This document shows, piece by piece, positions 6,121-51,680 of a stretch of 64,000 nucleotides of DNA; positions within the stretch are counted from its first letter, which is position 1; each line of letters begins with the position of its first letter. The stretch lies in UHGV virus genome UHGV-0240317. One strand, written 5' to 3'. This DNA is from a virus. The notes beneath the pieces are model-generated. The model was given only the letters and a program-made list of their open reading frames with translations. It was not told the DNA's origin and searched no databases. Position numbers and translations under genes: made by a program.

Positions 6121-6549
6121 ATGAAAGAGTATGTAGGTAAAGAGCTTGACATTGTAGATGCAAAGACACAGAGGTATATAACCACTGTTAAGTTTCTTGG
6201 AATTAGTGATATGAGTGATTTTTATCCTCTCCACTGCATAGTGCTAGACAAATTTGAGGTCTGTGGTATTAATTTTAATGAGGATAACTTTATAAGCTTT
6301 GATAAGGACGGTTTCTGGCGTGGTAAGAATCATCCTCAAGCAAATGATTTTGATATGCGTCTAGTGATACCACAAAAAGGTAACCAACAAAACGTAAAAG
6401 ATATCCTTGTAGAAGCCTATGCAGAAGGTATAATAGATGTTGTGAATGATGTTGAAAAAGCTTTAAAACTCATCATGCCACATTTAGAATCTGGAAAGCT
6501 GACTTTAGAGATGCTTAATAGGGTTATTCGGAGAGCTTATGAAAATTAA
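6121..6549 (+). CDS. hypothetical protein
   Basis: ORF with RBS. Confidence 0.6.
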   Translation: MKEYVGKELDIVDAKTQRYITTVKFLGISDMSDFYPLHCIVLDKFEVCGINFNEDNFISFDKDGFWRGKNHPQANDFDMRLVIPQKGNQQNVKDILVEAYAEGIIDVVNDVEKALKLIMPHLESGKLTLEMLNRVIRRAYEN

Positions 6550-7003
6550 AGAAGTAGTCCAAAAAGCAATGCTTGACAACTCAACTAAAGACGAAATGTA
6601 CAAAGAAATTTGTGATAAGTTGAATTGCTCAAGACATGCTGCTAAGGTTCTTGTACATTGTTTTATCTGGGAATGTTCAGAAGCTTATATGCAATATGTA
6701 GCGTTTGAAAGTTCTCACTTACTAGGTGATGTAGAAGCTGGTGAGAAGCTAAAAGAACCTGAGATGAAAACAGTCCCTAGAGTCGGTAATACATACCCTC
6801 TTAAAGATTTCAAGACTGGAAAGATTGTTGCAAAAGGTGTAGTAGAGTCTGTCTACCATGATGGTAAATACTTACTTAAAATATTTGAGTATGATAGCTA
6901 CTATACGCACTTATGTGGGATTACATTCTTGGTAACAGAAGAAGACCTCATTAAGAACAATGACAACAAGTTTGCAGTACCAGATTACCAAGTTTTACGA
7001 TAA
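6539..7003 (+). CDS. hypothetical protein
   Basis: ORF track. Confidence 0.6.
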   Translation: MKIKEVVQKAMLDNSTKDEMYKEICDKLNCSRHAAKVLVHCFIWECSEAYMQYVAFESSHLLGDVEAGEKLKEPEMKTVPRVGNTYPLKDFKTGKIVAKGVVESVYHDGKYLLKIFEYDSYYTHLCGITFLVTEEDLIKNNDNKFAVPDYQVLR

Positions 7004-7016
7004 TGGTGTGATAGAT

Positions 7017-7565
7017 ATGGAAAAAGATAACTTAAAAGAAGTTGAAGGTAACTACCTAGTCCTTGACTGGAGTGATGCTCAAGAAGCACTCTCTGAAGAA
7101 AGTCTTGACAGATTAAAACAGATTGTTTTTGCAGTACGTGGTTACAGAGAAGTTAAAAATGGTAAAGAGCCACTTGAAGGAATCTTTGTAGAGAAGTCTT
7201 ATCCGTTCTATGAAGACACTTTACAGAAAGTTAAGATGTACTTTAGACAGAAGAACCGTAAAGTAGTCACTATGGTATCTCTTGGTGGACAGAGTATGTC
7301 TGTGATGGAAGATATCAACCCTAAGAGACCGAGTAAAGGTGTTTGTATAAAAATCACAGGTCATGAAGAGTATATCTCAGTGGATGACTTTAGAGCATTC
7401 TGTAGTGGTTCTTGTGTCTTTAATGGTTTTCACTATGATATCCGAGTTTACCCAATCAAGGGTGATGGTATCATGATGCAGGTATTTGATAACAACAATG
7501 GATTTACTCATTTTTATCAGACAACCAAGTCATCATTAAAAACAGTTCTGGAAACACTGATTTAA
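7017..7565 (+). CDS. hypothetical protein
   Basis: ATG at 7017 just after the upstream stop; track ORF extends further 5'. Confidence 0.55.
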   Translation: MEKDNLKEVEGNYLVLDWSDAQEALSEESLDRLKQIVFAVRGYREVKNGKEPLEGIFVEKSYPFYEDTLQKVKMYFRQKNRKVVTMVSLGGQSMSVMEDINPKRPSKGVCIKITGHEEYISVDDFRAFCSGSCVFNGFHYDIRVYPIKGDGIMMQVFDNNNGFTHFYQTTKSSLKTVLETLI

Positions 7566-7575
7566 AATATCTTAA

Positions 7576-7601
7576 GAGCCTCCTTAATTGGGGGCTTTTT
7601 A
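7576..7601 (+). terminator. rho-independent terminator
   Basis: AGCCTCC-ttaatt-GGGGGCT followed by T-run; ends the plus-strand cluster. Confidence 0.6.
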
Positions 7602-7609
7602 ATTTTTAT

Positions 7610-9225
7610 AAAATTTTATCGGTTGTTCCAACCTCTGGGTCACCATCATATGTGAATAAAAATATCTATCCTTCTTAACAACCTTCTTAAGCTTACTCTC
7701 TATATATAGTTATATAGTACTATATAGTATCTTAGTATCTATCTAGTGGTCTTAATAGCCCCTCTGTATAGCCCTTCTAAACACTCTTCTAACAAGCCTT
7801 CTTAACAACCTATACAATCACCTTAACCATCTCTCTACACTCTCTTAGAAGCTCCTATACACCTCTTAATCTCTATGTCAGCTATGTTACTCTCTATAGA
7901 TGTTCACTAGGTATTACTAAGCCTCTATATAGACTTTTTTAACAAACTTAACAGGAGTATCTTTACAGACCTTATCTCACAAGGTCTAACACGGTACTAA
8001 CAAGGTATCTTATAAGCCTGTTATTACCTGTATTTTTAAAAGGCTGTATAGGTAATTATTCAGAATCTTAAAATTTTTATAAAATAGGACTATCAAGTCA
8101 TTTTTTAGGGTCTTTGAAGGAACTGAAAAATATCTGTCTAGGATGTATATCTGCTTGGTAGCCCTTAACAGCTCCCTTACAAGTACTTTGCAGAATTTTA
8201 AAGTATCCTTAACAATCTCTTAACAGTTCTCACACCTTCTTAACAACTCTTCAAAGGTCTTAACAGATTCTTAACAGAACTAACAAGGCTGTAACAAGTT
8301 CTTAACAGTCAATACATGGTATTTATAGTTTCTTAACAGATGACTAATAAGAGCTAACAAGTTAATTTTTAAGAGTTATTTTGTAGGGATTGGTAACAAT
8401 ACCAATTAAGATAATTAACAAGTTTCTAACAAGTGTTTAATCTTTTTAACAAGCTATTAACATGGTCACAGTGGTTGGTTACAAACACAACTTCTCTTTC
8501 TTATCGTTCCCTTTGCTTCTTAGTGATTCTTTAAACATACCTCTTAAAAGCTCTGTACAGCTCTGTATAGCCTCTTTTAAGTCTCTTCCTAGTAGTTACA
8601 CCCCAACTGTACAGATAGCTCTTTATAGGGCTTTACAGGGGCTTTTAAGGCTATGTCAAAGACTCTTACAAGGCTTTTACGTGGTCTTAACAGAGATTTA
8701 ACAAGGGGCTAACAAGTTGCTAACAAGTGCCTTAAAAGCATAACTATGTAGGGTTTGTTAAGAAATTGTTGAGAAAATGTTAAGGGGGCTAGCATTTACG
8801 TAACTTTGAAGATACATTTACGTAACTTTATAGCCCCTTTTACGTAACTTCAAAGTAACTTTAAAGCCCCTATAACATACTTTTTAGTGACTATCAAGGG
8901 GTTGTTTAGTTATTCACAAGATAGCTAACGAGATAATAAAGCTTACACCCTTATAAGATTCTTTTAAGGCTCTAGGAAGCTTTATAAAGGGCTTTTTAGG
9001 GTGAGTTAATGCAATCCCTTAAGTTAGGTTGATAAGGCTGTTATAGAGCTTTATAGAGCGTTTAAATGGGCCATCCCCTTTCTGGGGGTTATTGGCTTTT
9101 ATTTAAGTTGATTTGATAAGAGGTTATAGAGTAGACTATAGAGTTATTGCTTTTAAGGTCTGATAAGATTCTGGAAAGGTGAGGAAAGGGATTGTATAGG
9201 GGTTTGATAAGACGTAAAAAAAAAA
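7610..9225. repeat. ORF-free repeat-rich region (iteron-like motifs)
   Basis: many copies of CTTAACA(A/G)/CTAACAAG, three TTTACGTAACTT (8810-8860), four TGATAAG + TATAGAG (9040-9220); no credible ORF. Confidence 0.6.
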
Positions 9226-9282
9226 GCCCCTATGAGAAGGAGCTTTGAAGGTATCTGGGGCTATTTAGCCCCGCTGCGTCGA
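9225..9282 (-). terminator. terminator-like hairpins ending the minus-strand small-gene cluster
   Basis: GGGGC/GCCCC hairpins followed on the minus strand by a T10 run. Confidence 0.45.
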
Positions 9283-9531
9283 TTAGTTATAATCTTGTTT
9301 GTTGTAGTACAGGGAGACGATTTTTTCTCCCCAATAGTGATAAGTGTGACCATGCGTAAGAACTTCCTGTTTTGTTTCCTCCCAGAACTCATCCGAAGGA
9401 TTATAATCTTTGATGGTCTGACTGATAATACCTTTCACCATTTCAAAGGTGTTATCAGTGCCTGCAATGTCAAATTTAACATCCAGAGAGGAAAAACCGA
9501 ACTCGTTAACAGTAGCGCGGATAGTTGCCAT
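9283..9531 (-). CDS. hypothetical protein
   Basis: ORF preceded by class A conserved upstream element with GGAGA RBS. Confidence 0.55.
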   Translation of the reverse strand: MATIRATVNEFGFSSLDVKFDIAGTDNTFEMVKGIISQTIKDYNPSDEFWEETKQEVLTHGHTYHYWGEKIVSLYYNKQDYN

Positions 9532-9595
9532 TTTTGAATCTCCTAGTTTAAGGGTTTTATTTAGTGGGGGAGGTCATCCCCCGTTGATTGACAAT
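9532..9595 (-). repeat. class A conserved inter-genic element
   Basis: GAATCTCCTAGTTTAAGG..TTTAGTGGGG(G/A)AGGTCAT..CCCCGTTGATTGACAATTTAC. Confidence 0.7.
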
Positions 9596-10126
9596 TTACC
9601 GACTTTTAATTGTCTCGTCAATATCTTTTTCAATGTCTTTTAAAGTTTTTTCTAAGTTCTTGATATTAAAGGTTAAACCTTCACCAAGAGTCTTAGAGTA
9701 ACCACTAGGACGTAAATTATACAGCTTAATTTCTTCCACTTTAAAGAGGCTAACTAACTCACCGTTTACATCATAAGCCATTGAAACAGTATTTGCAGGT
9801 GCATTGTAAAACTTGTTTAGTGACTTGATAGAACGTTCATAAGCCATTTTATAACCGTTTAAAAGGTTTTTAACGTGGTTGTGAACGTTTTTACACTCAT
9901 CTAGATAAATCTCTAAGAATAACGGTAATAATTCCGCTACAGCTTGCATAAAGTGAGAGGCTACAACGGTAGAAACATTACGACGATGAACGTAATAAGC
10001 CCCGTTTTCTGATTTAGTGATGGTTGCAAAGTGTACACCATTGCAACGAAATTCATAGGTATCTTTAACAGGCTTTGACATGACATGAATTGAACGGATG
10101 TAGTTGATAGCTTTGAACTTGTTCAT
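9596..10126 (-). CDS. hypothetical protein
   Basis: ORF; class A element upstream. Confidence 0.6.
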   Translation of the reverse strand: MNKFKAINYIRSIHVMSKPVKDTYEFRCNGVHFATITKSENGAYYVHRRNVSTVVASHFMQAVAELLPLFLEIYLDECKNVHNHVKNLLNGYKMAYERSIKSLNKFYNAPANTVSMAYDVNGELVSLFKVEEIKLYNLRPSGYSKTLGEGLTFNIKNLEKTLKDIEKDIDETIKSR

Positions 10127-10200
10127 TTTAGAATCTCCTAGTTTAAGGGCTTTGTTTAGTGGGGAAGTTCATTCCCTCCCCGTTGATTAGTAATTTACTT
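10127..10200 (-). repeat. class A conserved inter-genic element
   Basis: same consensus as 9532-9595. Confidence 0.7.
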
Positions 10201-10351
10201 GTTTTGATATCTGATTGCAAGCAATTTTTTAAGTTTATCTATAAAGAATCTTTTAAGTTAATCCCTTTAAGATAAACCCCCCTCGAACAAAGTTACCAAT
10301 GTCAATAGGTATTGTCAACATTTTTTTAAAAGTTTTTTTGTAAGTCATTGA

Positions 10352-10693
10352 TTAACTGATGAATATTTTTTCAGGTTTTACATAGCTGATACGTTGGTTT
10401 TTTAGCAGGTCATCCCATAACAAGGCGGCAATGTGCCCATATCCGGCCTCACGCAGACCCTTCATCGTTTCAACTCGACTCTCAAAACGATTTGCGTAAT
10501 ACTCGCTATTAAGTGTCGTTTTGTTCCCTTCGTTATCTGTATGGATGATTTGCATCACTTGAAAGGGGCTGACATCCTCGCCTTTGTTCCACTGCTCAAA
10601 GTATTTTAGGCACTGCATAGGTGACATCTTATCACTTACTTGAGTTGACCAAGATGAATCTTCTTTATCGGTAATTATAGTTACATAAGCCAT
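10352..10693 (-). CDS. hypothetical protein
   Basis: ORF; class A element upstream. Confidence 0.6.
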   Translation of the reverse strand: MAYVTIITDKEDSSWSTQVSDKMSPMQCLKYFEQWNKGEDVSPFQVMQIIHTDNEGNKTTLNSEYYANRFESRVETMKGLREAGYGHIAALLWDDLLKNQRISYVKPEKIFIS

Positions 10694-10765
10694 TTTAGAA
10701 TCTCCTAGTTTAAGGACTTTATTTAGTGGGGAAGGTCATTCCCTCCCCGTTGATTGACAATTTAC
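10694..10765 (-). repeat. class A conserved inter-genic element
   Basis: same consensus. Confidence 0.7.
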
Positions 10766-10784
10766 AGACTTTTATCAGGCTTGT

Positions 10785-11018
10785 CTAGTCTTTTTCAATG
10801 ATAATTTCATATTGACCATCGACACTGTCAAAATAGACGCCGTCTTCATCTTCTGTCTTAAAGTAGCATTGAATATCATCACTGGCGGGATAGTCTTGTC
10901 TTGCTATCTGGCAAACTTGAATAGCATTTTCTTTACTTCCTGTGAACTCCTCAAGCCCTTTAAAATCACATGAATGGCCATTACAAATTGAGAGGATGAG
11001 ATAAACGGTTGTTAGCAT
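10785..11018 (-). CDS. hypothetical small cysteine-rich protein with hydrophobic N-terminus
   Basis: ORF; GCCCCTTGTAGGGGC hairpin just upstream. Confidence 0.5.
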   Translation of the reverse strand: MLTTVYLILSICNGHSCDFKGLEEFTGSKENAIQVCQIARQDYPASDDIQCYFKTEDEDGVYFDSVDGQYEIIIEKD

Positions 11019-11084
11019 GATTTAAGCCCTCTAAAAGCCCCTACAAGGGGCTGATTAGTGTTTATAAGGTGATTGCATAGGTTT

Positions 11085-11627
11085 TTAGAAAAAGCTCTTT
11101 AAATCCTCTTCTGCAATGTTTCCTGTCAGTGTATCCATGATGTCACAAAAAACCTGAATACTGTCGGACTGTTGAACACTTTTAGCAAGAAGCTCCAGAG
11201 ACTCATCAAGATAGTTTAAATTTGGATTATCCAATGAAGGAAGACAAAAAGGTGAATACATAGCGTTAAACTCTGTTGTATAGACCTTTTTAATCCAATT
11301 TACATCAAAGTACTCTGTAAAACTTGCTACACTCGACATATTATCACAAGAATAATCATCGTTTAGCTCATCCTCTGGAATATCGAGTTCTAAGATAACA
11401 ATATTTTGAGTCTTCATCTGAAAAGCTGCGGTGATAGTGGCATTGCCTAGAGCCTGCTGGATACCTTCAGAGATTATCTCTTCCTCATCGTCGCCATAGA
11501 TTTTATTTTCTGGGTACACGTAAAAATTGCCGTCCATATCCGAACAATTCCATGCGCCAGATGGTTTATCACCGTTATTAATCAGGTTGAGGAAATTTTC
11601 TTGAGTAGTACCGTGAAAGCATTTCAT
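11085..11627 (-). CDS. hypothetical protein (acidic)
   Basis: ORF; class B element upstream. Confidence 0.6.
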   Translation of the reverse strand: MKCFHGTTQENFLNLINNGDKPSGAWNCSDMDGNFYVYPENKIYGDDEEEIISEGIQQALGNATITAAFQMKTQNIVILELDIPEDELNDDYSCDNMSSVASFTEYFDVNWIKKVYTTEFNAMYSPFCLPSLDNPNLNYLDESLELLAKSVQQSDSIQVFCDIMDTLTGNIAEEDLKSFF

Positions 11628-11712
11628 TTTTGAATCTCCAGTTTAGGATTTAGTGGTAAAGCTCTTTATCTGGGGCTTACTTTATCGAACTGTAAGCCCC
11701 TTGTAAAGTACT
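11628..11712 (-). repeat. class B conserved inter-genic element
   Basis: GAATCTCCAGTTTAGGATTTAGTGGTAAAGCTCTTTATCTGGGGCTTAC...GTAAGCCCCTTGTAAAGTACTTTA with perfect hairpin. Confidence 0.7.
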
Positions 11713-11916
11713 TTATTTGTTATTTTTTACAACTTTTAAAACCGCACGATAACCTAAGCAATAGGAATCACCGAAGAGCGACCGGCCCATGAAGGAGTCC
11801 TCTGTAATATCTTTCGCCGTGACGGTTTTTTCTACGCCGTGAAATAGGACTACATCACCAACTTTAATATCTTTGATGTGCGTTGTTTCAATGGTTAAAC
11901 CGTTAATAATAGCCAT
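11713..11916 (-). CDS. hypothetical protein
   Basis: ORF; class A element upstream. Confidence 0.55.
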   Translation of the reverse strand: MAIINGLTIETTHIKDIKVGDVVLFHGVEKTVTAKDITEDSFMGRSLFGDSYCLGYRAVLKVVKNNK

Positions 11917-12015
11917 TTTTGAATCTCCTAGTTTAAGGGTTTTATTTAGTGGGGAGGTTATCGCCCCCGTTGATGTGTAATTTAATCTATCTAAAAACCA
12001 GTGTCAACAAAATTT
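11917..12015 (-). repeat. class A conserved inter-genic element (long variant)
   Basis: shares a 41 bp tail GTTGATGTGTAATTTAATCTATCTAAAAACCAGTGTCAACA with the copy at 12780-12867. Confidence 0.7.
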
Positions 12016-12420
12016 TTAGAGTTCTGCATAAATTGCATCGCAGATACCACGAAAATCATGATTTGTCAAATTACGTTGTAACCAAGTGGCGAAAAAGTCA
12101 GCTATTGCAAAGTTAGCGTAATACTCGACAGATAGCCACACTTTAACAGCAAACCGAAACATTTTCAAATCAAGCTCTTTATTCATTACCTTAGATTTGC
12201 CTAACATGTCAGCCATTTCATATTGTGCACCGTCTAGCGTGATACCTGCTGCAACGTCAATCAATGAGATTTTCACATTTTCAACGTCTAAGATAACACT
12301 TTGAATCTTCCCGATAATGTTGTGCAATGTTTCATCAGGCGCTGATGATGTCAGAACATTAATCCTGTTGACGGTCAAACGTGCTTTTAAAATTGATAAT
12401 TCACGGTTATTAATAGCCAT
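12016..12420 (-). CDS. hypothetical protein
   Basis: ATG at 12420 (MAINN...) with GGAGAA RBS; track ORF starts at an upstream TTG. Confidence 0.55.
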   Translation of the reverse strand: MAINNRELSILKARLTVNRINVLTSSAPDETLHNIIGKIQSVILDVENVKISLIDVAAGITLDGAQYEMADMLGKSKVMNKELDLKMFRFAVKVWLSVEYYANFAIADFFATWLQRNLTNHDFRGICDAIYAEL

Positions 12421-12506
12421 TTTTAAGTTCTCCAATTTAGGATTGAGTAGTAAAGCTCTTTATCTGGGGCTTACTCTATCGAACTGTAAGCCCCTTGTAA
12501 AGTACT
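12421..12506 (-). repeat. class B conserved inter-genic element
   Basis: same consensus and hairpin as 11628-11712. Confidence 0.7.
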
Positions 12507-12779
12507 TTACATTAAATGCAGTTTTTTGCCTTTTACTATAATGTAACTCGATGCGCTATTGCTTTGCACATCCTGATAAATTCTGCGCAAACGTCCTTCG
12601 TAGTATACTTTCCAACTGGTTGGAATCTTTTTCCCGTATCCTGTAGCAGTTTTTTGGAGTCCTGCAACTTGCCAATCTAAGATATGAGTTTCAGCCTGTA
12701 AATCCTCAAAGTGCATGACACCATCTACATAGTGACGTAGTGTGACATTTAAAGTACGACCGTTGTTAGTAGTATACAT
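12507..12779 (-). CDS. hypothetical protein
   Basis: ORF; class A element upstream. Confidence 0.55.
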   Translation of the reverse strand: MYTTNNGRTLNVTLRHYVDGVMHFEDLQAETHILDWQVAGLQKTATGYGKKIPTSWKVYYEGRLRRIYQDVQSNSASSYIIVKGKKLHLM

Positions 12780-12867
12780 TTTGGAATCTCCAGTTTAGGA
12801 CTTTATTTAGTGGGGAAGGTCATTCCCTCCCCGTTGATGTGTAATTTAATCTATCTAAAAACCAGTG
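12780..12867 (-). repeat. class A conserved inter-genic element (long variant)
   Basis: same consensus; shared 41 bp tail. Confidence 0.7.
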
Positions 12868-13200
12868 TCAACAGTTTTGTTTTCGTTTGCTCAATTCTTG
12901 AACAATTACAGCGTAGTAGTCTTTTAAGTCACTGACATTTAAAGCATTTATCAGAGAATTATAATCATCAACTAACTGAAAATCATCTTTGAAGATGTCA
13001 CTTATCTGATAGGTTTTCGCTTTGTATCTGAAGCTCATCTCTAGCCGCTTTATTTGCTCATCACTTAAACGCTCCAGAAAGCTCCCTACAAGGTTATTGC
13101 TAACCTGTTGTGTGATTGCCTTACTTGCCAGATTATAGGCGCTATAAGCCTTATAGAGCGCCAGAATAGCGATGATTGCAGTTATGCCCATCATTAACAT
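12868..13200 (-). CDS. hypothetical membrane protein
   Basis: N-terminal hydrophobic helix MLMMGITAIIAILALY. Confidence 0.55.
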   Translation of the reverse strand: MLMMGITAIIAILALYKAYSAYNLASKAITQQVSNNLVGSFLERLSDEQIKRLEMSFRYKAKTYQISDIFKDDFQLVDDYNSLINALNVSDLKDYYAVIVQELSKRKQNC

Positions 13201-13490
13201 GGTGCTTCCTCTTTACGTGACACTTTGCCATTTACAGTTATCTCATAAGAATCTAGTAAATCGCTTTTAGATTTGACAGGATTTTTAAGAGTATCATCAT
13301 AGATATTAACTTGCAATACAGGTTTTTTATACTCCCTGCAACTATTCCATAAGCAAATCACTACACGACGACCTTTTATTTTGCCGTGTAACCATTCCAT
13401 AACATCATGGCTGTTTCTTGATGTTTCAATGAAATCAATTTTGTTGAGTAATTTGCTTAGATTTTCACGCACTTGATTTGATAATTTCAT
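13194..13490 (-). CDS. hypothetical protein
   Basis: ORF; hybrid A/B element upstream. Confidence 0.55.
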   Translation of the reverse strand: MKLSNQVRENLSKLLNKIDFIETSRNSHDVMEWLHGKIKGRRVVICLWNSCREYKKPVLQVNIYDDTLKNPVKSKSDLLDSYEITVNGKVSRKEEAPC

Positions 13491-13582
13491 TTTAGAATCT
13501 CCTAGTTTAAGGGCTTTATTTGATAAATCTCTTTATCTGGGGCTATCCTACCAGCTTGATAACCCCGTGTAAAGAAATCTGT
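13491..13582 (-). repeat. hybrid class A/B inter-genic element
   Basis: class A 5' part (CTCCTAGTTTAAGGGCTTTATTT) fused to class B-like CTCTTTATCTGGGGCT hairpin. Confidence 0.6.
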
Positions 13583-14095
13583 TTAGTTCTTAAAGATATT
13601 CATCACTGAATCTTTTAATGCTTCCAAGCGTTCTAATACTTCAGTTTCTGCGTCTGAATTGTTCACCTCTTCTTTTAGTCTATCCTCTAAATCATCGCCG
13701 TCACTATAGCACCAATCAAAGGCATATCCTAGATAAAAACTCTCTAAAACCGTGTTGCCATTTGCATCGATAACTTTCGCGGCAAGGTTGTATTCTGAAG
13801 CCTCTAAATCTCTTTCTAGTTCTTTCTGTAAGCTGGTGTAAGCCTCTTTTGATGGGTTTTCCCGGCCTTGTTTTGCATAGTCACTAGAAAGCTGTTTAAG
13901 GTTATAATTTAAAGGGATTGCATATTTAAAATCGTTACGCTGACAGTTAGGGTTTTTAATAGTCACGCCGCCTTGATGGTCATCTGTAAACTTCCAATTA
14001 TCAAGATTATGGCTTGCTTCGTAGCAATTAACAGCTTCATAAATAATGGTGAATTTTTCTTTTACAACTTCAAAGGTAGCGTCTACAGTTTTCAT
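13583..14095 (-). CDS. hypothetical protein
   Basis: ORF; class B element upstream. Confidence 0.6.
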   Translation of the reverse strand: MKTVDATFEVVKEKFTIIYEAVNCYEASHNLDNWKFTDDHQGGVTIKNPNCQRNDFKYAIPLNYNLKQLSSDYAKQGRENPSKEAYTSLQKELERDLEASEYNLAAKVIDANGNTVLESFYLGYAFDWCYSDGDDLEDRLKEEVNNSDAETEVLERLEALKDSVMNIFKN

Positions 14096-14180
14096 TTTGG
14101 AATCTCCAGTTTAGGATTTAGTGGTAAAGCTCTTTATCTGGGGCTTAAGATATCAGCTTTTAAGCCCCTTGTAAAGTACT
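14096..14180 (-). repeat. class B conserved inter-genic element
   Basis: GGGGCTTAA-gatatcagctt-TTAAGCCCC hairpin plus conserved leader. Confidence 0.7.
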
Positions 14181-14474
14181 TTATTTGTTAATTTTTAGCT
14201 TTGCATAACTTCTCATTGTACGAATGAAGGATGTTAATGCTACGCGTCTAATATATGCCTTTTTCGTGTATACATTTGTCTTCCCGATAGTGTTTACACA
14301 TGTAAAAAGGTTTATCAGTGAATTTTTTAACTTCAACTGTTTATCAACCTTCACGCCCCACCTTACAGCAGTTTGTTTTCCGTTGTCAACCACTTTCCCG
14401 CCTAACTTTTTCGCCATGATGCGAGCGTCATCACGAGTTTTTGCAGGAATTACAACGTTTTTGATAATAGCCAT
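14181..14474 (-). CDS. hypothetical basic protein
   Basis: ATG at 14474 (MAIIKN...) with GGAGAA RBS. Confidence 0.55.
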   Translation of the reverse strand: MAIIKNVVIPAKTRDDARIMAKKLGGKVVDNGKQTAVRWGVKVDKQLKLKNSLINLFTCVNTIGKTNVYTKKAYIRRVALTSFIRTMRSYAKLKINK

Positions 14475-14562
14475 TTTTAAGTTCTCCAATTTAGGATTGA
14501 GTGATAAAGCTCTTTATCTGGGGCTTAAGATATCAGCTTTTAAGCCCCCTGTAAAGTACTTT
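14475..14562 (-). repeat. class B conserved inter-genic element
   Basis: near-identical to 14096-14180. Confidence 0.7.
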
Positions 14563-14769
14563 TTATTTATCGTAGTAGTAAATTGCTGTCTGTCTTGTAA
14601 ACTTCTTAGTGTTTATTGTAAGGTAGCAATTAGAATTAATAGCCGTTTCTACATAGTTGCAATAGTCAGTTTCTGAAATTCTACGCCATGCGCCGCACAC
14701 TTGCATGTAAAAACGTTTTACATTTGTATTAACGTTGGTTGTAACCATCAATTCACGACTGTAAAGCAT
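14563..14769 (-). CDS. hypothetical protein (first gene of the cluster)
   Basis: ORF preceded by conserved leader CCCACTTCCTAAACTGGAGAATCAAAA and the promoter below. Confidence 0.55.
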   Translation of the reverse strand: MLYSRELMVTTNVNTNVKRFYMQVCGAWRRISETDYCNYVETAINSNCYLTINTKKFTRQTAIYYYDK

Positions 14770-14809
14770 TTTTGATTCTCCAGTTTAGGAAGTGGGCTTG
14801 ATTGCCCGT

Positions 14810-14838
14810 CTGATGCAAATATTAGATAACCATACTCA
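14810..14838 (-). promoter_or_regulatory. sigma70-like promoter for the small-gene cluster
   Basis: minus strand TTGACT - 17 nt - TAATAT with AT-rich upstream region; ~35 nt before the ATG at 14769. Confidence 0.65.
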
Positions 14839-14984
14839 AAGAGTCAATAGGAATTTTAAAAATATTTTTGCAAAAATTGTAATGAAACGGGTGCGCGCGA
14901 CTACCACAAAACAGAACTACAATCAAGAATTATTTTTCAATCCGCTACAAATTTTTCTGTTGACTTTTATTTCCAGATGTGGTA

Positions 14985-15240
14985 GCCTTGTGAGAAATGG
15001 CGACATCCCCACCTGTACCCACCTACCTGCACAATTCTAAAATGATTTTTCTTGCCCGACCTGAGCGGGGTCTGCACGTTTTGAAAATGAAAAAGCTCTT
15101 TGGAGATTACCTGCACAGTTTGAAAATGAATTTTCTCTTTGGAGTTCAAAACTTTCTCTATAGATTTCTCTACAGAACTCTACCTGCACAATCCTGAAAT
15201 GAAAAAGCCCTCCTTACCTGAAAAATTTACCAGATAAGAA
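14985..15240. repeat. four copies of a ~38 bp direct repeat
   Basis: ACCTGCACA(A/G)TT(C/T)TGAAAATGA(A/T)TTTT..CTTTGGAG repeated; no credible ORF. Confidence 0.6.
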
Positions 15241-15275
15241 AGGCTTAGTCTATTGTGAATATCTTACAGAGTTTC

Positions 15276-16061
15276 TTAGTTCTTTGCGTCTAAGAAGGTA
15301 ACTTCTGATGATGAGAAAATTTCTTCGATATCCTCATCAGTTCTTGCATAGATGTAGGTGTCTGCATCGTTACCAAATGTCACGGCAATTCTATGATTGC
15401 TCTTCGACAGGTGGGTAACTAGAGCGTTACTTAGAGACATCTTTTCAACCGGAGGGTTACTTTGATGTATCTTACCTTTTCTTCGTCTGAAGAGGGTAAC
15501 TTCATTATCTGCGAACACTGCTACACCTGCAAAGTATTCTGGTTCACAGTAGTTCTTCCAACCTGAGCGTAACTTATGGTACATCTCTCCTTCGTAGACA
15601 TATAGATAAACATCTACACTCTTCATTGCCTGATTGATAATAACTGTGACAGCTTGAGGGTCAAGTCCACCAATACCTGCACCAATCATAGGTAAACCAA
15701 CTTTCTTCAACTGATTAACTTCACAGTATCTGTTAAGCTGTTTCAAAGATGACTCTAAAGCACTGTATCGGGCATCTTTACCAGTCTTAAGCTGAGTGTA
15801 AAGGTTAGCTATACGACCTTGTTTTAAACGTGCTACAGAGAAATTACCCAGTAAATTTTCACAGGGTTTGTGTCCTATACCACCTGCATATAGATAAACT
15901 TCTGTATCGGTCTCATATGCTTTTGGGTAAAGTTTAGAAATCTTGTCAGCGATACCTGCACCCATTAAATTCATACAGTTGCAACCGTGACCGATGATGT
16001 CAAACTTACCTTTATCAAATGCGGCAAAGATATCACCATTGATTATTTTTACAATACCCAT
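15276..16061 (-). CDS. macrodomain protein (TARG1/DarG-like) with unknown C-terminal domain
   Basis: NGDIF..DIIGHGCNCMNLMGAGIA and GLPMIGAGIGGLD match TARG1-type macrodomain motifs as recalled. Confidence 0.7.
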   Translation of the reverse strand: MGIVKIINGDIFAAFDKGKFDIIGHGCNCMNLMGAGIADKISKLYPKAYETDTEVYLYAGGIGHKPCENLLGNFSVARLKQGRIANLYTQLKTGKDARYSALESSLKQLNRYCEVNQLKKVGLPMIGAGIGGLDPQAVTVIINQAMKSVDVYLYVYEGEMYHKLRSGWKNYCEPEYFAGVAVFADNEVTLFRRRKGKIHQSNPPVEKMSLSNALVTHLSKSNHRIAVTFGNDADTYIYARTDEDIEEIFSSSEVTFLDAKN

Positions 16062-16262
16062 TTAACATCTCTCCCAAGACTCTTTATCTTCTGAAGGTTT
16101 TACACGCTGTCCTTCGTGGTCTACCCAGATACATCCACAACCTTCACAGATTACTGGCATTGCGTAGCCAGCTTTAAAGTCATCCTCAGTGATAAGACCT
16201 TTTAAGTCACCTGTATCACGTCCAAACATTTCTATAGAACAGTCTTTGCAGAAGTCAGCCAT
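16062..16262 (-). CDS. hypothetical zinc-ribbon protein
   Basis: CKDC...CEGCGC cysteine pairs; start taken at MADFCKDC. Confidence 0.45.
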   Translation of the reverse strand: MADFCKDCSIEMFGRDTGDLKGLITEDDFKAGYAMPVICEGCGCIWVDHEGQRVKPSEDKESWERC

Positions 16263-16482
16263 TGATAATTGCCTCTTGAATGATGATACCTTTACCACAA
16301 CGGCTTTTAAAGTCTTCCAATGGTTGGGAGATGAAGCCACGCAAGCAATCACTAAATACTAAGTTTTTCCTGTAGGCTATCACATCGTTTGCTGTAAACG
16401 GGATGACTTCATTTCTTCCAATGAATACTGCTGACCGGATGAGTTTCCGTGTCTTTTTATCTCTGGCTAGAATTACTCTCAT
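16255..16482 (-). CDS. hypothetical protein
   Basis: ORF track. Confidence 0.5.
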   Translation of the reverse strand: MRVILARDKKTRKLIRSAVFIGRNEVIPFTANDVIAYRKNLVFSDCLRGFISQPLEDFKSRCGKGIIIQEAIING

Positions 16483-16783
16483 AATTTACCTTCTCAGTTA
16501 GCTCATATAAATCAACATGCTCAATACTATCAATGTTGATATCAATCTTTTTGAAGCGTTCTATCACTTCATTGTCAGTCATCCATATCAGACACCAATG
16601 ATTCTGGATGGATTCTTCAAGAAGTTCAACACAATCTTTAAAAGTTTTTGTATCACTTCTTGTGCCTACTACTGCGATTGTTCCATATAGCCACTTACCA
16701 TTGCCATAAGATACTTGTGCTACGCCAACTTCTTTACCTTTCTCGTAGTAAACGGCTACAAAGTCTCTTCCATTAATCTGCAT
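16457..16783 (-). CDS. hypothetical protein
   Basis: ORF track. Confidence 0.55.
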   Translation of the reverse strand: MQINGRDFVAVYYEKGKEVGVAQVSYGNGKWLYGTIAVVGTRSDTKTFKDCVELLEESIQNHWCLIWMTDNEVIERFKKIDINIDSIEHVDLYELTEKVNYESNSSQR

Positions 16784-18092: not shown

Positions 18093-18788
18093 TCAATGTT
18101 TAACTAACATGGTTTTAATGTGTGGAAGGATTCTGTTCACCTTCTGCACATTCTTCTCTGTATCTTCTATAAAACATACTATATTAAAGTAAGGCAGAAT
18201 GCAAGACTGAATCATCCTCACTTTCAAACTTTCTGCACTTATAGAGTTAGTTCCAAAACCACGCATAAAAAGCATGTAGTCATGCTCTATGTTATGCCTT
18301 AAGAACATCTCAGTAGGTATTCTCTGAGATTCACCTCTTGCTGTCAAGAGTCCAATGGCAGCATGATTAGCGATTGCATCAATAATACTAAAAACATACG
18401 TTGGTTTTGCTCTTACAGAGTCAAGAAGATTAGTGTACTGTGAGAATGACCCGTCAGTCAATTCCGTTGAGCAATCTTCGTGATTAAAATTTGTAAGAAC
18501 ACCATCAATATCTGCTAAGATGAGGTTACCTTTTTCTACAAGGTCTTTATTGACTATGACTAAACTGTCACGTCTTACACCTATAGATTGCCCCGTCTCT
18601 TTATCCACAACGTTCACAATTGGTTGTGATGTGTGGAACTCTTCAAGTGAACATACAACTTCTCTTGCAGTATCTTCAAAATCCCTGCACTGTTCTGAAG
18701 TCCATACACAGGAATCAAGACCTAACTCATGAGGATGCAAGTCATAAGCATGACACAATACTTCATCAGACTTTCTTAATTTTTTCAT
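18093..18788 (-). CDS. HAD-superfamily phosphatase-like protein
   Basis: LILADIDGVLT motif (DxDG[TV]) typical of HAD hydrolases. Confidence 0.55.
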   Translation of the reverse strand: MKKLRKSDEVLCHAYDLHPHELGLDSCVWTSEQCRDFEDTAREVVCSLEEFHTSQPIVNVVDKETGQSIGVRRDSLVIVNKDLVEKGNLILADIDGVLTNFNHEDCSTELTDGSFSQYTNLLDSVRAKPTYVFSIIDAIANHAAIGLLTARGESQRIPTEMFLRHNIEHDYMLFMRGFGTNSISAESLKVRMIQSCILPYFNIVCFIEDTEKNVQKVNRILPHIKTMLVKH

Positions 18789-19314
18789 GGTTTACCTTAG
18801 AAATGTTTGTTGCAAATTCACATTGAGCGATGGCTTTCATATTGTTGTAGACATCTTGAGAGTATTTCTTAGCTTTAGGGATTTTGTACGAATACCCAGC
18901 ATTATATGATGCTAAAACTTTTTGTAAAGTCTTTTTTGACTTTGGCTGACCATGCACCTTTGTCCAAAACTCAAGCTCTTTATGTGTTTCTTTAGCGGCA
19001 TAATCAAAATCTTTTAAGAGTTTCTTTTTAGCCACATTAGGACTGATTTTGTTACGCTTTACAACAGTCTTCAAGTGATTCTGGAAAATACCATAGTCAT
19101 GGGTCTTTTTGTTCTCTACCTTCAGACCTAACTCTGACTCTTGTAAGGCTATAGCTGCTAGAGTGATACCCCAACCTTTACCCATGTTGTTCTCACCATA
19201 CTGGTAAGCCTTTAACATGTTCACTTTTTGGCTAATTGATAGCTCTGGGCAGTCAACTGCATAAGCTAATTGTGCTGTAAACATTAAGCACAAACCTAGA
19301 ATCAATTTCTTCAT
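18766..19314 (-). CDS. secreted protein, possibly lytic transglycosylase-like
   Basis: cleavable signal peptide; AIALQESELG and YNAGYSY weakly resemble SLT-domain motifs. Confidence 0.45.
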   Translation of the reverse strand: MKKLILGLCLMFTAQLAYAVDCPELSISQKVNMLKAYQYGENNMGKGWGITLAAIALQESELGLKVENKKTHDYGIFQNHLKTVVKRNKISPNVAKKKLLKDFDYAAKETHKELEFWTKVHGQPKSKKTLQKVLASYNAGYSYKIPKAKKYSQDVYNNMKAIAQCEFATNISKVNHEKIKKV

Positions 19315-20524: not shown

Positions 20525-20603
20525 CTTATTACTCTCTCTTGTTAGTTAATAAATCATTTTGTAAGGCTATTCTAAGGGGCTTTGAAGCCCCTTGTCAAAC
20601 ACT

Positions 20604-50590: not shown

Positions 50591-50596
50591 AACTAA

Positions 50597-51202
<606 letters not shown>

Positions 51203-51204
51203 TT

Positions 51205-51645: not shown

Positions 51646-51654
51646 GTTGACTAG

Positions 51655-51680
51655 GTAGCCTCTTCGGAGGCTCCTTTTTA
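51655..51680 (+). terminator. rho-independent terminator
   Basis: AGCCTC-ttcg-GAGGCT followed by T-run. Confidence 0.65.

What the first reader, a model, noticed from the sequence alone, without database searches (positions are those of the whole stretch)
9532..14800. Two alternating families of conserved inter-genic elements upstream of nearly every gene in the minus-strand small-gene cluster
Eleven of the twelve gaps between the 13 small genes (9283-14769) carry a conserved ~65-90 bp element in one of two classes. Class A (plus-strand) is GAATCTCCTAGTTTAAGG..TTTAGTGGGGAAGGTCATTCCCTCCCCGTTGATTGACAATTTAC, with copies at 9532, 10127, 10694, 11917, 12780. Class B is GAATCTCCAGTTTAGGATTTAGTGGTAAAGCTCTTTATCTGGGGCTTA..loop..TAAGCCCCTTGTAAAGTACTTTA, with copies at 11628, 12421, 14096, 14475. 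A hybrid sits at 13491. On the coding strand each gives a conserved leader CCACTAAAT...CCTAAACT(A)GGAGA(T/A)TC(T/C)AAAATG, preceded by a GC-rich hairpin. The first gene has the same leader behind a strong sigma70-like promoter. Conservation is far higher than in the coding sequences they separate. This looks like a modular cassette system in which unrelated small genes share a translation-initiation and processing module, or a target for cassette exchange.
Basis: seen in the sequence. Interest (0 to 1): 0.7.

Follow-up and report, generated by a model that had tools for sequence, protein, structure and literature searches.

The report
Promoter–hairpin cassettes between phage early genes
In this Felix O1-like phage nearly every small early gene of unknown function is preceded by the same ~90-base unit (a host-type promoter, a GC hairpin and a shared ribosome-binding leader), and related phages gain and lose genes exactly at these repeats, as already described for "PeSL" cassettes in T4-like phages.

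Summary
The repeats are real. Ten of the 12 gaps between the 13 minus-strand genes (9283-14769) carry a class A or class B element, and gene 1 has the same leader. No further clear copy occurs in the 64-kb window.

The window is a Felixounavirus (Felix O1-like). Each element runs from the upstream stop codon through an AT-rich stretch, a sigma70-type promoter and a GC-rich stem-loop to a conserved leader ending in GGAG and ATG.

- **Class A:** TTGnnn-17-TAAATT, followed by a hairpin near the predicted 5' end of the mRNA.
- **Class B:** an invariant TTTACA-17-TAnnnT, with the -35 in the left arm and the -10 in the loop of a 20-pair hairpin supported by covariation across four genera.

In 12 related phages the gene order is kept, but whole cassettes are present or absent. 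Every indel junction inside the cluster lies within elements of the same class.

This is the architecture and behaviour of PeSLs (promoter-early stem-loops) of T4-like phages, here in the Ounavirinae and without sequence homology. Parts were noted before, as direct repeats in Felix O1 and an "SAS-like" repeat in phage Mordin, but were not interpreted.

Promoter, terminator and processing activities are inferred, not shown.

Verdict: a new member of a known kind, of moderate interest.

The parts
14770..14847 (-). Gene 1 control region: promoter TTGACT-17-TAATAT (14847..14819), small hairpin GGGC-AATCAA-GCCC, and leader CCTAAACTGGAGAATCAAAAATG
   Evidence: Promoter scan; sequence; fold -11.1 kcal/mol, z -2.6. 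The same hairpin-and-leader type is used at several junctions in phage SUSP2.
14475..14562 (-). Class B element upstream of gene 2: TTTACA-17-TATCTT (14555..14527) inside a long hairpin, with leader CCTAAATTGGAG
   Evidence: E 1e-25
14096..14180 (-). Class B element upstream of gene 3: TTTACA-17-TATCTT (14175..14147)
   Evidence: RNA fold -23.7 kcal/mol, z -3.6
13491..13582 (-). Hybrid element upstream of genes 4-5: class B promoter-hairpin (TTTACA-17-TAGGAT, 13573..13545) joined to a class A-type leader (CCTTAAACTAGGAG)
   Evidence: fold -25.2 kcal/mol
12780..12873 (-). Class A element upstream of gene 6: TTGACA-17-TAAATT (12871..12843), hairpin GGGGAGGG-AATGA-CCTTCCCC, and a class B-type leader. 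The upstream stop codon TGA lies inside the -35 hexamer.
   Evidence: fold -17.9 kcal/mol
12421..12506 (-). Class B element upstream of gene 7: TTTACA-17-TAGAGT (12501..12473)
11917..12012 (-). Class A element upstream of gene 8: TTGACA-17-TAAATT (12007..11979), hairpin GGGGG-CGATAAC-CTCCCC
11628..11712 (-). Class B element upstream of genes 9-10: TTTACA-17-TAAAGT (11707..11679)
   Evidence: fold -26.0 kcal/mol, z -4.8
11019..11084 (-). Gene 9/10 gap with no A or B element: only the hairpin AGCCCCTTGTAGGGGCT followed by TTTT, then AGAGGG and ATG. Genes 9 and 10 always travel together.
10694..10788 (-). Class A element upstream of gene 11: TAGACA-17-TAAATT (10787..10759). The upstream stop codon TAG lies inside the -35 hexamer.
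10127..10225 (-). Class A element upstream of gene 12: TTGCAA-17-TAAATT (10220..10192)
   Evidence: Read directly from the sequence; model match
10226..10351 (-). Extra non-coding stretch in the gene 11/12 gap with a further promoter-like site TTGACA-17-TAACTT (10318..10290) and a 31-codon ORF. Probably the remnant of a lost cassette.
   Evidence: Mooglevirus phages have a 46-codon ORF at this position. The remnant reading is inferred.
9532..9623 (-). Class A element upstream of gene 13: TTGACG-17-TAAATT (9621..9593). The -35 and spacer lie inside the end of gene 12, and gene 12's stop codon TAA is the start of the -10 hexamer.
9223..9246 (-). Intrinsic terminator that closes the cluster: a 9-pair stem followed by T9
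   Evidence: It corresponds to terminator t23 of Felix O1.
9283..14769 (-). Thirteen small genes (67-180 codons) of unknown function, forming the cassettes: 14563-14769, 14181-14474, 13583-14095, 13194-13490, 12868-13200, 12507-12779, 12016-12420, 11713-11916, 11085-11627, 10785-11018, 10352-10693, 9596-10126, 9283-9531
   Evidence: The first ten genes each match a different PHROG of unknown function.

Best explanation
The elements are composite early regulatory cassettes of the PeSL type.

**Layout.** Each element starts at or overlaps the stop codon of the gene before it and ends at the ATG of the gene after it. In order it contains:
1. An AT-rich stretch.
2. A promoter for host sigma70 RNA polymerase.
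3. A GC-rich stem-loop.
4. A short conserved spacer (CCACTAAAT).
5. A leader in which CCU(U) can pair with the (A)GGAG ribosome-binding site.
6. An A-rich spacer before the ATG.

Nearly every small gene is therefore its own early transcription unit.

**Class A (inferred).** Transcription starts about 7 nt after TAAATT, so the hairpin sits 2-4 nt from the 5' end of the mRNA. There it would protect the transcript against 5'-end-dependent decay.

**Class B (inferred).**
- The -35 lies in the left arm and the -10 in the loop of the hairpin.
- RNA started at this promoter begins in the right arm and cannot form the hairpin.
- Only transcripts reading through from upstream can form it, and in them it would act as an attenuator, terminator or processing site that insulates the cassettes from one another.

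**Recombination (shown by comparison).** The ~60-90 nt shared between copies serves as substrate for homologous recombination. This deletes, inserts, duplicates or swaps gene-plus-element units and homogenises the elements themselves. Genes flanked by same-class elements vary between phages. Genes flanked by unlike elements are fixed.
For: **Identity and context**
- The window is a Felixounavirus, 90.8% identical to phage tootiki.
- The cluster lies next to the genome terminus.
- By RT-PCR, Felix O1 ORFs 16, 20, 21 and 22 of this cluster peak at 5 min after infection.

**Promoters**
- A sigma70-type site lies at a fixed place in every element.
- In 52 distinct class B copies from four genera, TTTACA is invariant. 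Exactly 17 nt later T1, A2 and T6 of the -10 are invariant, while positions 3-5 and the rest of the loop vary (TATCTT, TAAAGT, TAGGAT, TAAGAT, TAGTAT, TACCAT, TAATCT).
- In class A, about ten unrelated upstream contexts, some of them inside coding sequence, all keep TTGnnn exactly 17 nt before TAAATT or TAAAGT.
- The 20 nt upstream of the -35 are 77% AT, against 63% overall.

**Hairpins**
- Class B folds at -24 to -26 kcal/mol, z -3.2 to -4.8.
- 94.7% of pair cells are paired, against 90.6% in shuffles. The covariation score is 0.129 against 0.062, reached by 0 of 500 shuffles. Slid controls pair at 56% or less.
- Compensatory changes are G-C to U-A at pairs 5-56 and 18-43, and several pair types at 24-37.
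- RNAalifold predicts the same fold independently.
- U.G pairs at 20-41, 6-55 and 3-58 fit the coding-strand RNA. On the other strand they would be C.A mismatches.
- Class A has at least 21 different hairpin sequences, all of which fold (-6.7 to -15.6 kcal/mol).

**Recombination**
- The cassette maps show synteny with indels of whole cassettes.
- All junctions within the cluster lie inside elements, with 60-100 nt of overlapping homology.
- All five kinds of indel have same-class flanks, whereas genes 4-7, which have unlike flanks, are present in all 12 enterobacterial genomes.
- Loop, hairpin and leader variants are shuffled between orthologous junctions.
- Tandem or solo elements and a duplicated cassette occur in Mordin and Michonne.

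**Match to the published definition**
- PeSLs are defined with the same parts, the same alternative hairpin positions and the same behaviour.
Against: - No transcription start, termination or cleavage site has been mapped. All activities are inferred from sequence.
- The overall count of promoter-like sites in the region (33, against 23 +/- 4.7 in shuffles) is not striking on its own. The argument rests on fixed position and conservation.
- Neither hairpin is followed by a proper U-run on the coding strand (class B has CUUUAC, class A has ACUAAAU), so strong intrinsic termination is doubtful.
- The copies are related by descent and by gene conversion, so the covariation reflects few independent events. 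Pair 18-43 changes once, in the Erwinia lineage.
- The perfect linkage of CCT..GGAG with CCTT..AGGAG (91, 49 and 0 mixed) could simply be linkage of sites 5 nt apart.
- The RT-PCR timing in Felix O1 is mixed: ORFs 14, 17, 19 and 23 peak at 25 min.
- There is no sequence homology to the PeSLs of T4-like phages. BLAST hits are confined to records that carry this Felix O1-like sequence, all named Ounavirinae apart from a few odd record names.
Confidence: 0.8

Rival explanations
1. The cluster is one polycistronic early operon driven only by the gene 1 promoter. The elements are RNA processing and stability signals plus a shared translation leader, for example RNase III sites like those between the early genes of phage T7. 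The promoter-like hexamers are incidental.
For: - The class B hairpin has a lower stem of about 11 pairs, a 3x3 internal loop and an upper stem of 9 pairs, which is the general shape of T7 RNase III sites (own knowledge).
- It is supported by covariation, and its U.G pairs fit the sense strand.
- A single strong terminator closes the cluster.
Against: - It does not explain why T1, A2 and T6 of a -10 hexamer are invariant in an otherwise variable loop, at exactly 17 nt from an invariant TTTACA.
- It does not explain why about ten unrelated class A upstream contexts all keep TTGnnn at 17 nt.
- The class A stem, at 5-8 pairs, is too short for RNase III.
- Processing could still be an added function of class B. 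Only the exclusive version is scored here.
Confidence: 0.12
2. The inverted repeats are DNA operators for a phage-encoded (or host) dimeric regulator that shuts the early promoters off, rather than RNA structures.
For: - The repeats overlap or directly follow the promoters.
- The right arm CCCCAGATAAAGAG is invariant across four genera, including bases that do not pair.
- The authors of the PeSL work also speculated that a protein binds GGGG...CCCC.
Against: - Compensatory changes keep the pairing while the sequence changes.
- U.G pairs are tolerated on the sense strand only.
- Class A stems differ widely in sequence and length.
- No DNA-binding regulator was identified in the cluster: the ten genes scanned match only families of unknown function.
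Confidence: 0.06
3. The elements are attachment sites of a dedicated site-specific cassette-exchange system (integron-like), or are small selfish mobile elements.
For: The units are gene plus repeat, are present or absent between phages, and solo or tandem elements exist.
Against: - No integrase or recombinase domain turned up among the 18 cluster and flanking ORFs scanned, although the Pfam scan covered only 8 flanking ORFs.
- Crossovers fall anywhere along the shared 60-100 nt rather than at one point.
- The elements stay in one cluster and one orientation, and are not scattered through the genome.
Confidence: 0.02

Closest known systems
PeSLs (promoter-early stem-loops) of T4-like phages RB49, phi1, PST and nt-1 (Arbiol et al. 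2010, PMC2839356; Comeau et al. 2014, PMC4122927)
   Same: - A composite ~100-nt intergenic motif running from the stop codon through an AT-rich region, a sigma70-like promoter and a stem-loop (often polyG...polyC) to the Shine-Dalgarno sequence and ATG.
- The stem-loop lies between or over the promoter hexamers, or just after the -10.
- The motifs are concentrated upstream of small genes of unknown function in variable regions.
- Indels between related phages are bounded by the motifs.
   Different: - A different phage subfamily (Ounavirinae), with no detectable sequence homology.
- About ten copies in one terminal cluster, rather than ~50 spread over several regions.
- Two sharply defined sequence classes plus a conserved leader.
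- Promoter activity, terminator activity and mini-circles were shown experimentally for PeSLs, but nothing has been shown here.
Start-associated sequences (SAS) and extended SAS of cluster K mycobacteriophages (Pope et al. 2011, PMC3203893)
   Same: - A short asymmetric repeat that includes the ribosome-binding site, a few nucleotides before the start codons of a subset of non-structural genes.
- About half of them are preceded by imperfect 17-bp inverted repeats with a variable spacer.
- The Mordin genome announcement explicitly likened the leader repeat CCAACAATCCTAAACTGGAGAATCTA to SASs.
   Different: - Different sequence and different hosts.
- For extended SASs the authors found little support for an RNA hairpin, whereas here the pairing covaries.
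- Here the inverted repeat carries a recognisable promoter.
Direct repeats listed in the Felix O1 genome paper (Whichard et al. 2010, PMC3185647)
   Same: These are the same elements. The 57-bp repeat CTTTACATGGGGCTTAAAAGTCTGTAAAGTAAGCCCCAGATAAAGAGCTTTACCACT is class B. The 39-bp repeat TTGACACTGGTTTTTAGATAGATTAAATTACACATCAAC is the class A promoter.
   Different: They were reported only as repeats. They are not among the promoters the paper lists, and the paper states that temporal regulation is unknown.
RNase III processing hairpins between the early genes of phage T7 (own knowledge)
   Same: Long interrupted hairpins with an internal loop between small early genes transcribed by host polymerase. 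This resembles the class B hairpin.
   Different: - T7 has promoters only at the start of the early operon.
- No cleavage has been tested here.
Intergenic repeats of halovirus HF2 that carry promoters (PMC8707807; abstract seen)
   Same: Two classes of conserved intergenic repeats that were shown to be promoters.
   Different: An archaeal virus with archaeal promoters. From the abstract, neither a hairpin-plus-leader architecture nor a recombination role is evident.
The precisely conserved terminator of Erwinia phage phiEa21-4 (Lehman et al. 2009; recalled from memory, as the paper was not available)
   Same: A repeated regulatory hairpin in a phage of the same subfamily.
   Different: It is a different element, GGGACTCTTCGGAGTCCTTTTT, located outside the small-gene cluster. 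phiEa21-4 separately has four unannotated class-B-like copies inside its cluster.

Membership tests
PeSL (promoter-early stem-loop) cassettes | Contains a sigma70-consensus-like promoter (-35 and -10 hexamers) | tested here: met
   A site is present in every element, with 8-10 of 12 consensus matches. The -35 is invariant, T1, A2 and T6 of the -10 are invariant, and the spacing is fixed at 17 nt. Tested in silico only.
PeSL (promoter-early stem-loop) cassettes | [quoted passage not shown] | tested here: met
   77% AT in the 20 nt upstream, against 63% over the loci
PeSL (promoter-early stem-loop) cassettes | Stable stem-loop, often G-run...C-run, lying between or over the hexamers or just after the -10 | tested here: met
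   In class B the upper stem GGGGCTTA/TAAGCCCC lies between the -35 and -10 and overlaps the -10. In class A the hairpin GGGGAGGG/CCTTCCCC follows the -10.
PeSL (promoter-early stem-loop) cassettes | Bounded by the upstream stop codon and the downstream Shine-Dalgarno sequence and start codon | tested here: met
   Stop codons even lie inside the -35 (TGA, TAG) or the -10 (TAA).
PeSL (promoter-early stem-loop) cassettes | Concentrated in variable regions, upstream of small genes of unknown function | tested here: met
   Ten genes scanned, each matching a distinct PHROG of unknown function. Gene content varies among 12 phages. Copies occur only in this cluster within the window.
PeSL (promoter-early stem-loop) cassettes | Insertions, deletions and replacements between related phages are bounded by the motifs | tested here: met
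   All junctions within the cluster lie inside elements, with 60-100 nt of overlapping homology. Junctions outside the cluster do not.
PeSL (promoter-early stem-loop) cassettes | Demonstrated promoter and terminator/attenuator activity, and mini-circle formation | not testable with these tools
   Needs reporter assays, transcript mapping and outward-facing PCR.
PeSL (promoter-early stem-loop) cassettes | Sequence relatedness to the RB49/phi1 motifs, and occurrence in T4-like phages | tested here: not met
   BLAST of both classes against 50,697 phage records listed no T4-like phage. Hits were Felix O1-like (Ounavirinae) phages plus a few records named for other hosts, such as 'Staphylococcus phage SA1' and 'Campylobacter phage A132'. 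This is an analogue, not a homologue.
Start-associated sequences (SAS/ESAS) | 13-bp repeat GGGATAGGAGCCC a few nucleotides before start codons | tested here: not met
   The position and the inclusion of the ribosome-binding site are alike, but the sequence is CCTAAACTGGAGA or CCTTAAACTAGGAGA.
Start-associated sequences (SAS/ESAS) | Imperfect 17-bp inverted repeats with a 4-13 bp spacer upstream of about half the repeats | tested here: inconclusive
   Class B has inverted arms of about 24 nt with an 11-13 nt centre (I6-I11). Unlike ESAS, it shows compensatory pairing and carries a promoter.
Intrinsic (rho-independent) terminators | GC-rich hairpin immediately followed by a run of U on the transcribed strand | tested here: not met
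   The scan flags only 9246..9223, after the last gene, and 15246..15205 on the minus strand. The elements are followed by CUUUAC or ACUAAAU.
Known RNA families (Rfam 15) | Match to a curated covariance model | tested here: not met
   Only two sub-threshold matches to a microRNA hairpin model, at E 0.11 and 0.21.

The most novel reading that the evidence does not exclude
The elements form a two-layer insulator that has evolved independently of the T4-type PeSLs.

- **Promoter inside a conditional hairpin.** In class B a promoter is nested in a hairpin that can form only in RNA arriving from upstream. Each cassette would then end or process the incoming transcript at the very point where it starts its own.
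- **Cluster-specific translational switch.** The conserved leader folds into a small anti-Shine-Dalgarno/Shine-Dalgarno hairpin. This hairpin is kept, with different sequences, in the Escherichia/Salmonella, Citrobacter and Erwinia phage lineages.
- **Two classes set which genes are exchangeable.** Same-class flanks make a gene 'plug-and-play', while unlike flanks lock it in. The layout would thus encode which early genes are exchangeable.
Probability: 0.3. Interest if true: 0.6.

Novelty: new member of a known kind. Interest (0 to 1): 0.45.

Why it matters
- **Unanswered regulation.** Felix O1-like phages are widely used for Salmonella typing, biocontrol and therapy. Their genome paper states that temporal regulation and transcription around the terminators are not understood. 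These elements give a concrete map of about eleven early promoters and explain repeats that had only been listed before.
- **Wider reach of the PeSL mechanism.** They show that gene shuffling mediated by promoter/stem-loop cassettes, described only for T4-like phages, also operates in an unrelated subfamily. This supports the mechanism as a general route by which virulent phages exchange small host-takeover or anti-defence genes.
- **Practical use.** The elements are natural, pre-insulated landing pads for inserting genes into these phages. They also mark where engineered inserts are likely to be lost by recombination.

Tried and rejected
- **RegB-type nuclease targeting the GGAG leaders.** A related Erwinia phage record (Tian) annotates a 'RegB-like endoribonuclease' at the position syntenic to window 18766-19314. 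Pfam gives only a weak SLT lysozyme-like hit for the window protein and no RegB domain. phiEa21-4 annotates the ortholog as Vs.1. Dropped.
- **Identity with the 'precisely conserved terminator' of phiEa21-4.** That element is a different sequence at different places.
- **Known RNA family.** None found in Rfam.
- **Intrinsic terminators on the coding strand.** No U-run follows the hairpins.
- **Elements more conserved than genes between orthologues.** Not so: 88-93% against 87-91%.
- **Simple short patterns.** CCACTAAAT and CCTAAACTNGGAGA with mismatches are barely above chance over the whole window. Profile searches of the whole element were needed.
- **First chaining attempt.** A greedy chaining of BLAST pieces failed because the repeats overlap. 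It was replaced by dynamic-programming chaining.
- **Literature.** Searches for transcriptome or start-site data on Felix O1-like phages found nothing. The phiEa21-4 paper could not be read.

Full report
**What is there**

The window is a Felix O1-like myovirus (Ounavirinae, Felixounavirus). The 6.4-kb region is 90.8% identical to Escherichia phage tootiki and matches 254 phage records.

On the minus strand, 13 small genes (67-180 codons) run from 14769 down to 9283. The ten scanned each match a different PHROG of unknown function. A strong terminator at 9246-9223 closes the cluster.

- five class A copies (9532, 10127, 10694, 11917, 12780);
- four class B copies (11628, 12421, 14096, 14475);
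- a hybrid at 13491.

Profile HMMs built from these copies score them at E = 1e-19 to 1e-27. They find nothing comparable elsewhere in the 64 kb, except a weak class-B-like site in the rIIA/rIIB gap.

- Ten, not eleven, of the 12 gaps carry an element. Genes 4 and 5 overlap, and the gene 9/10 gap has only a short hairpin.
- The classes do not strictly alternate.
- Between orthologous positions in eight related phages the elements are no better conserved than the genes (88-93% against 87-91%). The striking conservation is between copies within a genome, whose flanking genes are unrelated.

**Anatomy on the coding strand**

- **Class A:** stop codon, AT-rich stretch, TTGACA-like hexamer, 17 nt, TAAATT, about 10 nt ending in ATCAAC, a hairpin such as GGGGAGGG-AATGA-CCTTCCCC, ACTAAAT, CCTTAAACTAGGAGATTCTAAA, ATG.
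- **Class B:** TAA-AGTAC-TTTACA-N-GGGGCTTA, an 11-13 nt centre, TAAGCCCC-AGATAAAGAGCTTTACCACTAAAT-CCTAAACTGGAGATTC-AAA-ATG.
- **Gene 1:** the same plan with TTGACT-17-TAATAT, a smaller hairpin (GGGC...GCCC) and the same leader.

Stop codons of the preceding genes sit inside the promoter hexamers: TGA in TTGACA, TAG in TAGACA and TAA in TAAATT. For gene 13, the -35 and spacer lie inside the end of gene 12.

**Promoters**

The consensus scan places a sigma70-type site at the same relative position in the elements: 14847, 14555, 14175, 13573, 12871, 12501, 12007, 11707, 10787 and 9621. The 10127 copy has TTGCAA-17-TAAATT, read directly from the sequence.

The total number of promoter-like sites in the region is unremarkable on its own (33, against 23 +/- 4.7 in shuffles). 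The weight comes from comparison.

I collected 74 class B and 58 class A instances from the window and 12 related loci, spanning Felixounavirus, Mooglevirus, Suspvirus and the Erwinia Kolesnikvirus.

- **Class B.** TTTACA is invariant. Exactly 17 nt later T, A and the sixth T of the -10 are invariant, while the three middle positions and the rest of the loop vary freely. This is the conservation pattern of a sigma70 -10 hexamer, not of a hairpin loop.
- **Class A.** The sequence upstream of the -10 is not part of the repeat and differs between junctions. Even so, about ten unrelated contexts all have TTGnnn exactly 17 nt upstream of TAAATT or TAAAGT.
- **Upstream region.** The 20 nt upstream of the -35 are 77% AT, against 63% overall.

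I regard promoter function as strongly supported by sequence evidence, but it is not shown experimentally.

**Hairpins**

Class B RNA folds into a lower stem of 11 pairs, a 3x3 internal loop and an upper stem of 9 pairs, at -24 to -26 kcal/mol and z -3.2 to -4.8. RNAalifold finds the same fold on 52 distinct sequences.

Pair counting gives the following:
- 94.7% of pair cells are paired, against 90.6% in shuffles.
- The covariation score is 0.129 against 0.062, reached by 0 of 500 shuffles.
- Slid controls pair at 56% or less.
- Double changes occur at pairs 5-56 (G-C 35, U-A 11), 18-43 (G-C 47, U-A 5, the Erwinia lineage) and 24-37 (five pair types).

The frequent U.G pairs at 20-41, 6-55 and 3-58 are acceptable only in coding-strand RNA. 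This argues for an RNA role rather than a cruciform or an operator.

One caveat applies. The copies are related by descent and by conversion, so the number of independent events is small.

Class A hairpins occur in at least 21 different sequences, all of which fold (-6.7 to -15.6 kcal/mol). The stem is kept while its sequence changes: GGGGAGG/CCTTCCCC, GGGAGG/CCTCCC, GGGGG/CCCCC, GGGGC/GCCCC and GGGGAAG/CTTCCCC.

Neither hairpin is followed by a U-run on the coding strand, and no Rfam family matches.

**Inferred mechanics**

- **Class A.** A start about 7 nt after TAAATT puts the hairpin 2-4 nt from the 5' end. This is the arrangement known to stabilise E. coli mRNAs against 5'-end-dependent decay (own knowledge: Emory, Bouvet and Belasco 1992).
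- **Class B.**
  - The predicted start is the A of CCCC-AGATAAAG, inside the right arm, so the promoter's own RNA cannot form the hairpin. A transcript beginning near that start has no significant structure (z 0.08).
  - Only read-through RNA can form the hairpin, and in it the hairpin could attenuate, terminate or be cleaved.
  - Its shape resembles T7 RNase III sites (own knowledge).

These steps are inference.

**Leader**

The shared leader can form a small hairpin in which CCU(U) pairs with (A)GGA of the ribosome-binding site.
- Across the loci, CCT-AAAYT-GGAG occurs 91 times and CCTT-AAACT-AGGAG 49 times, and the mixed forms never occur. This could be plain linkage of sites 5 nt apart.
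- The Erwinia phage phiEa21-4 has different leaders with the same property: CCTT-ATA-AAGG and CCTT-AAA-GAGG.
- In the window, CCY lies 3-11 nt before the ribosome-binding site in 11 of 13 cluster genes, against 4 of 59 other ORFs.

The function of this leader is unknown. A weak translational control is the simplest reading.

**Recombination**

Cassette maps of the 12 related loci keep the gene order but differ by whole units:
- A 126-codon gene (x6) lies between genes 1 and 2 in eight phages.
- Gene 2 is absent from Felix O1 and Alf5.
- Genes 2 and 3 are absent from Alf5.
- Genes 8-10 are absent from Felix O1.
- An 87-codon gene (x23) lies between genes 12 and 13 in two phages.
- Michonne has a duplicated gene 2 cassette with two adjacent elements.
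- Mordin has a solo tandem element.

When the window is chained against seven phages, every junction inside the cluster has both homology ends inside elements. One element in the shorter genome aligns to both flanking elements of the longer one, with 60-100 nt of overlap. The junctions outside the cluster do not fall in elements.

All five kinds of indel are flanked by elements of the same class. The cassettes flanked by unlike classes (genes 4-5, 6 and 7) are present in all 12 enterobacterial genomes.

At orthologous junctions, different phages carry different loop, hairpin and leader variants, and these same variants occur at other junctions. The hybrid at 13491 and the 12780 copy combine the parts of the two classes. 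Together this indicates ordinary homologous recombination and gene conversion between the repeats, with crossovers spread along the shared core.

**Context**

- The homologue of the annotated 618-bp direct terminal repeat of phage UAB_69 maps to window 8155-8791. The cluster therefore sits at a genome end and is transcribed toward it.
- In Felix O1, RT-PCR put ORFs 16, 20, 21 and 22 of this cluster in the 5-min class and ORFs 14, 17, 19 and 23 in the 25-min class.
- In Bas63, a knockout screen describes this part of the genome as small hypothetical genes of varying essentiality. The gene 9 homologue (gp107) is conditionally important in one host.

**Comparison with what is known**

The description of PeSLs in RB49 and phi1 matches point for point:
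- a sigma70-like promoter with an AT-rich upstream region;
- a stem-loop, often polyG...polyC, placed between or over the hexamers or just after the -10;
- a motif beginning at the upstream stop codon and ending at the Shine-Dalgarno sequence and ATG;
- ~100 nt of conservation;
- location before small genes of unknown function in variable regions;
- indels bounded by the motifs.

Those authors also showed promoter activity, terminator activity and mini-circles, and noted that no evidence yet existed outside T4-like phages.

The present elements share no detectable sequence with PeSLs. BLAST hits are confined to Felix O1-like (Ounavirinae) phages and a few records named for other hosts that carry the same sequence. 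They are therefore an analogue in another subfamily.

Parts of them were noticed before:
- The Felix O1 paper lists the 57-bp and 39-bp repeats without interpretation, and says that temporal regulation is unknown.
- The Mordin announcement reports a 26-bp repeat before eight start codons, 'reminiscent of SASs', with unknown role.

SAS/ESAS of cluster K mycobacteriophages are similar in position and in having upstream inverted repeats. They differ in sequence and lack evidence for a hairpin.

The conserved terminator of phiEa21-4 is a different element.

I found no paper that describes these elements as promoter/stem-loop cassettes or as recombination sites in Ounavirinae. The searchable library excludes most subscription journals.

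**Verdict**

The cassettes and their exchange are supported. However, each element is mainly a promoter plus hairpin rather than a processing and translation module behind a single promoter.
- The finding is a new member of a known kind. It is useful for understanding and engineering Felix O1-like phages and extends the PeSL idea, but it is not categorically new.

Noticed in passing
window 7570-9280: A 1.7-kb non-coding stretch just beyond the cluster's terminator is packed with short repeats. CTTAACAR occurs 12 times on the + strand in 7674-8693, with ~10 expected by chance in the whole window; ctataaag/ctatacag motifs also recur. The homologue of the annotated 618-bp direct terminal repeat of phage UAB_69 maps to 8155-8791 (82.6% identity), so the physical genome end probably lies here.
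   Followed up: partly
window 20525-20603 (minus strand), rIIA/rIIB gap: TTGACA-AGGGGCTTCAAAGCCCCT-TAGAAT is a promoter-like site with a GC hairpin filling its spacer. Its left side resembles class B (TAAAGTGTTTGACAAGGGGCTT). It may be a relative of the elements outside the cluster.
   Followed up: partly
window 50236-52031: A separate family of ~85-137-nt direct repeats (5 copies) contains long runs of GGT-spaced motifs (for example TGGTTTGGTGTGGTCAGGTAATG) next to CTTAAGAGTCTTTTAAAAGGG. It was not examined and could be an origin or iteron region.
   Followed up: no
window 15024-15217: Three direct repeats (TACCTGCACA..TGAAAATGAAAAAGC) lie between the macro-domain gene (15276-16061) and the gene 1 promoter, just downstream of a strong minus-strand terminator (15246-15205).
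   Followed up: no
window 10226-10351: The gene 11/12 gap is 225 nt long. Besides its class A element it holds an extra TTGACA-17-TAACTT site and a 31-codon ORF. Mooglevirus phages have a 46-codon ORF at this position, so this is probably a decayed cassette.
   Followed up: partly
window 9532-14790, leaders; L013 (phiEa21-4) 9700-16500: The leader CCU(U)-AAACU-(A)GGAG can pair the ribosome-binding site with an upstream CCU. The two variants never mix (91, 49 and 0). The Erwinia phage uses other sequences with the same property (CCTT-ATA-AAGG and CCTT-AAA-GAGG).
   Followed up: partly
window 18766-19314 (minus strand): The syntenic gene in Erwinia phage Tian is annotated as 'RegB-like endoribonuclease'. 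The window protein gives only a weak SLT (lysozyme-like) Pfam hit, and phiEa21-4 calls the ortholog Vs.1, so the RegB label looks like an annotation slip.
   Followed up: partly
L006 (Michonne) 6474-7335; L005 (Mordin) 4125-4268: Two phages of the same species differ by a tandem duplication of the gene 2 cassette, which leaves two adjacent class B elements (Michonne), and by a truncated-plus-full tandem element after gene 1 (Mordin). The Mordin join falls at the CTTTAC motif, which occurs twice in each element.
   Followed up: partly
window 11085-11627 (gene 9): Its Bas63 homologue (gp107) was reported as conditionally important in E. coli S17-1, with faint structural similarity to the NAD-binding domain of RNA 2'-phosphotransferase (PhageMaP preprint).
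   Followed up: no
phage collection records GU169904 and MG065664: Records named 'Staphylococcus phage SA1' and 'Campylobacter phage A132' carry this Felix O1-like cluster at ~90% identity. They are most likely contaminated or mis-assigned entries.
   Followed up: no
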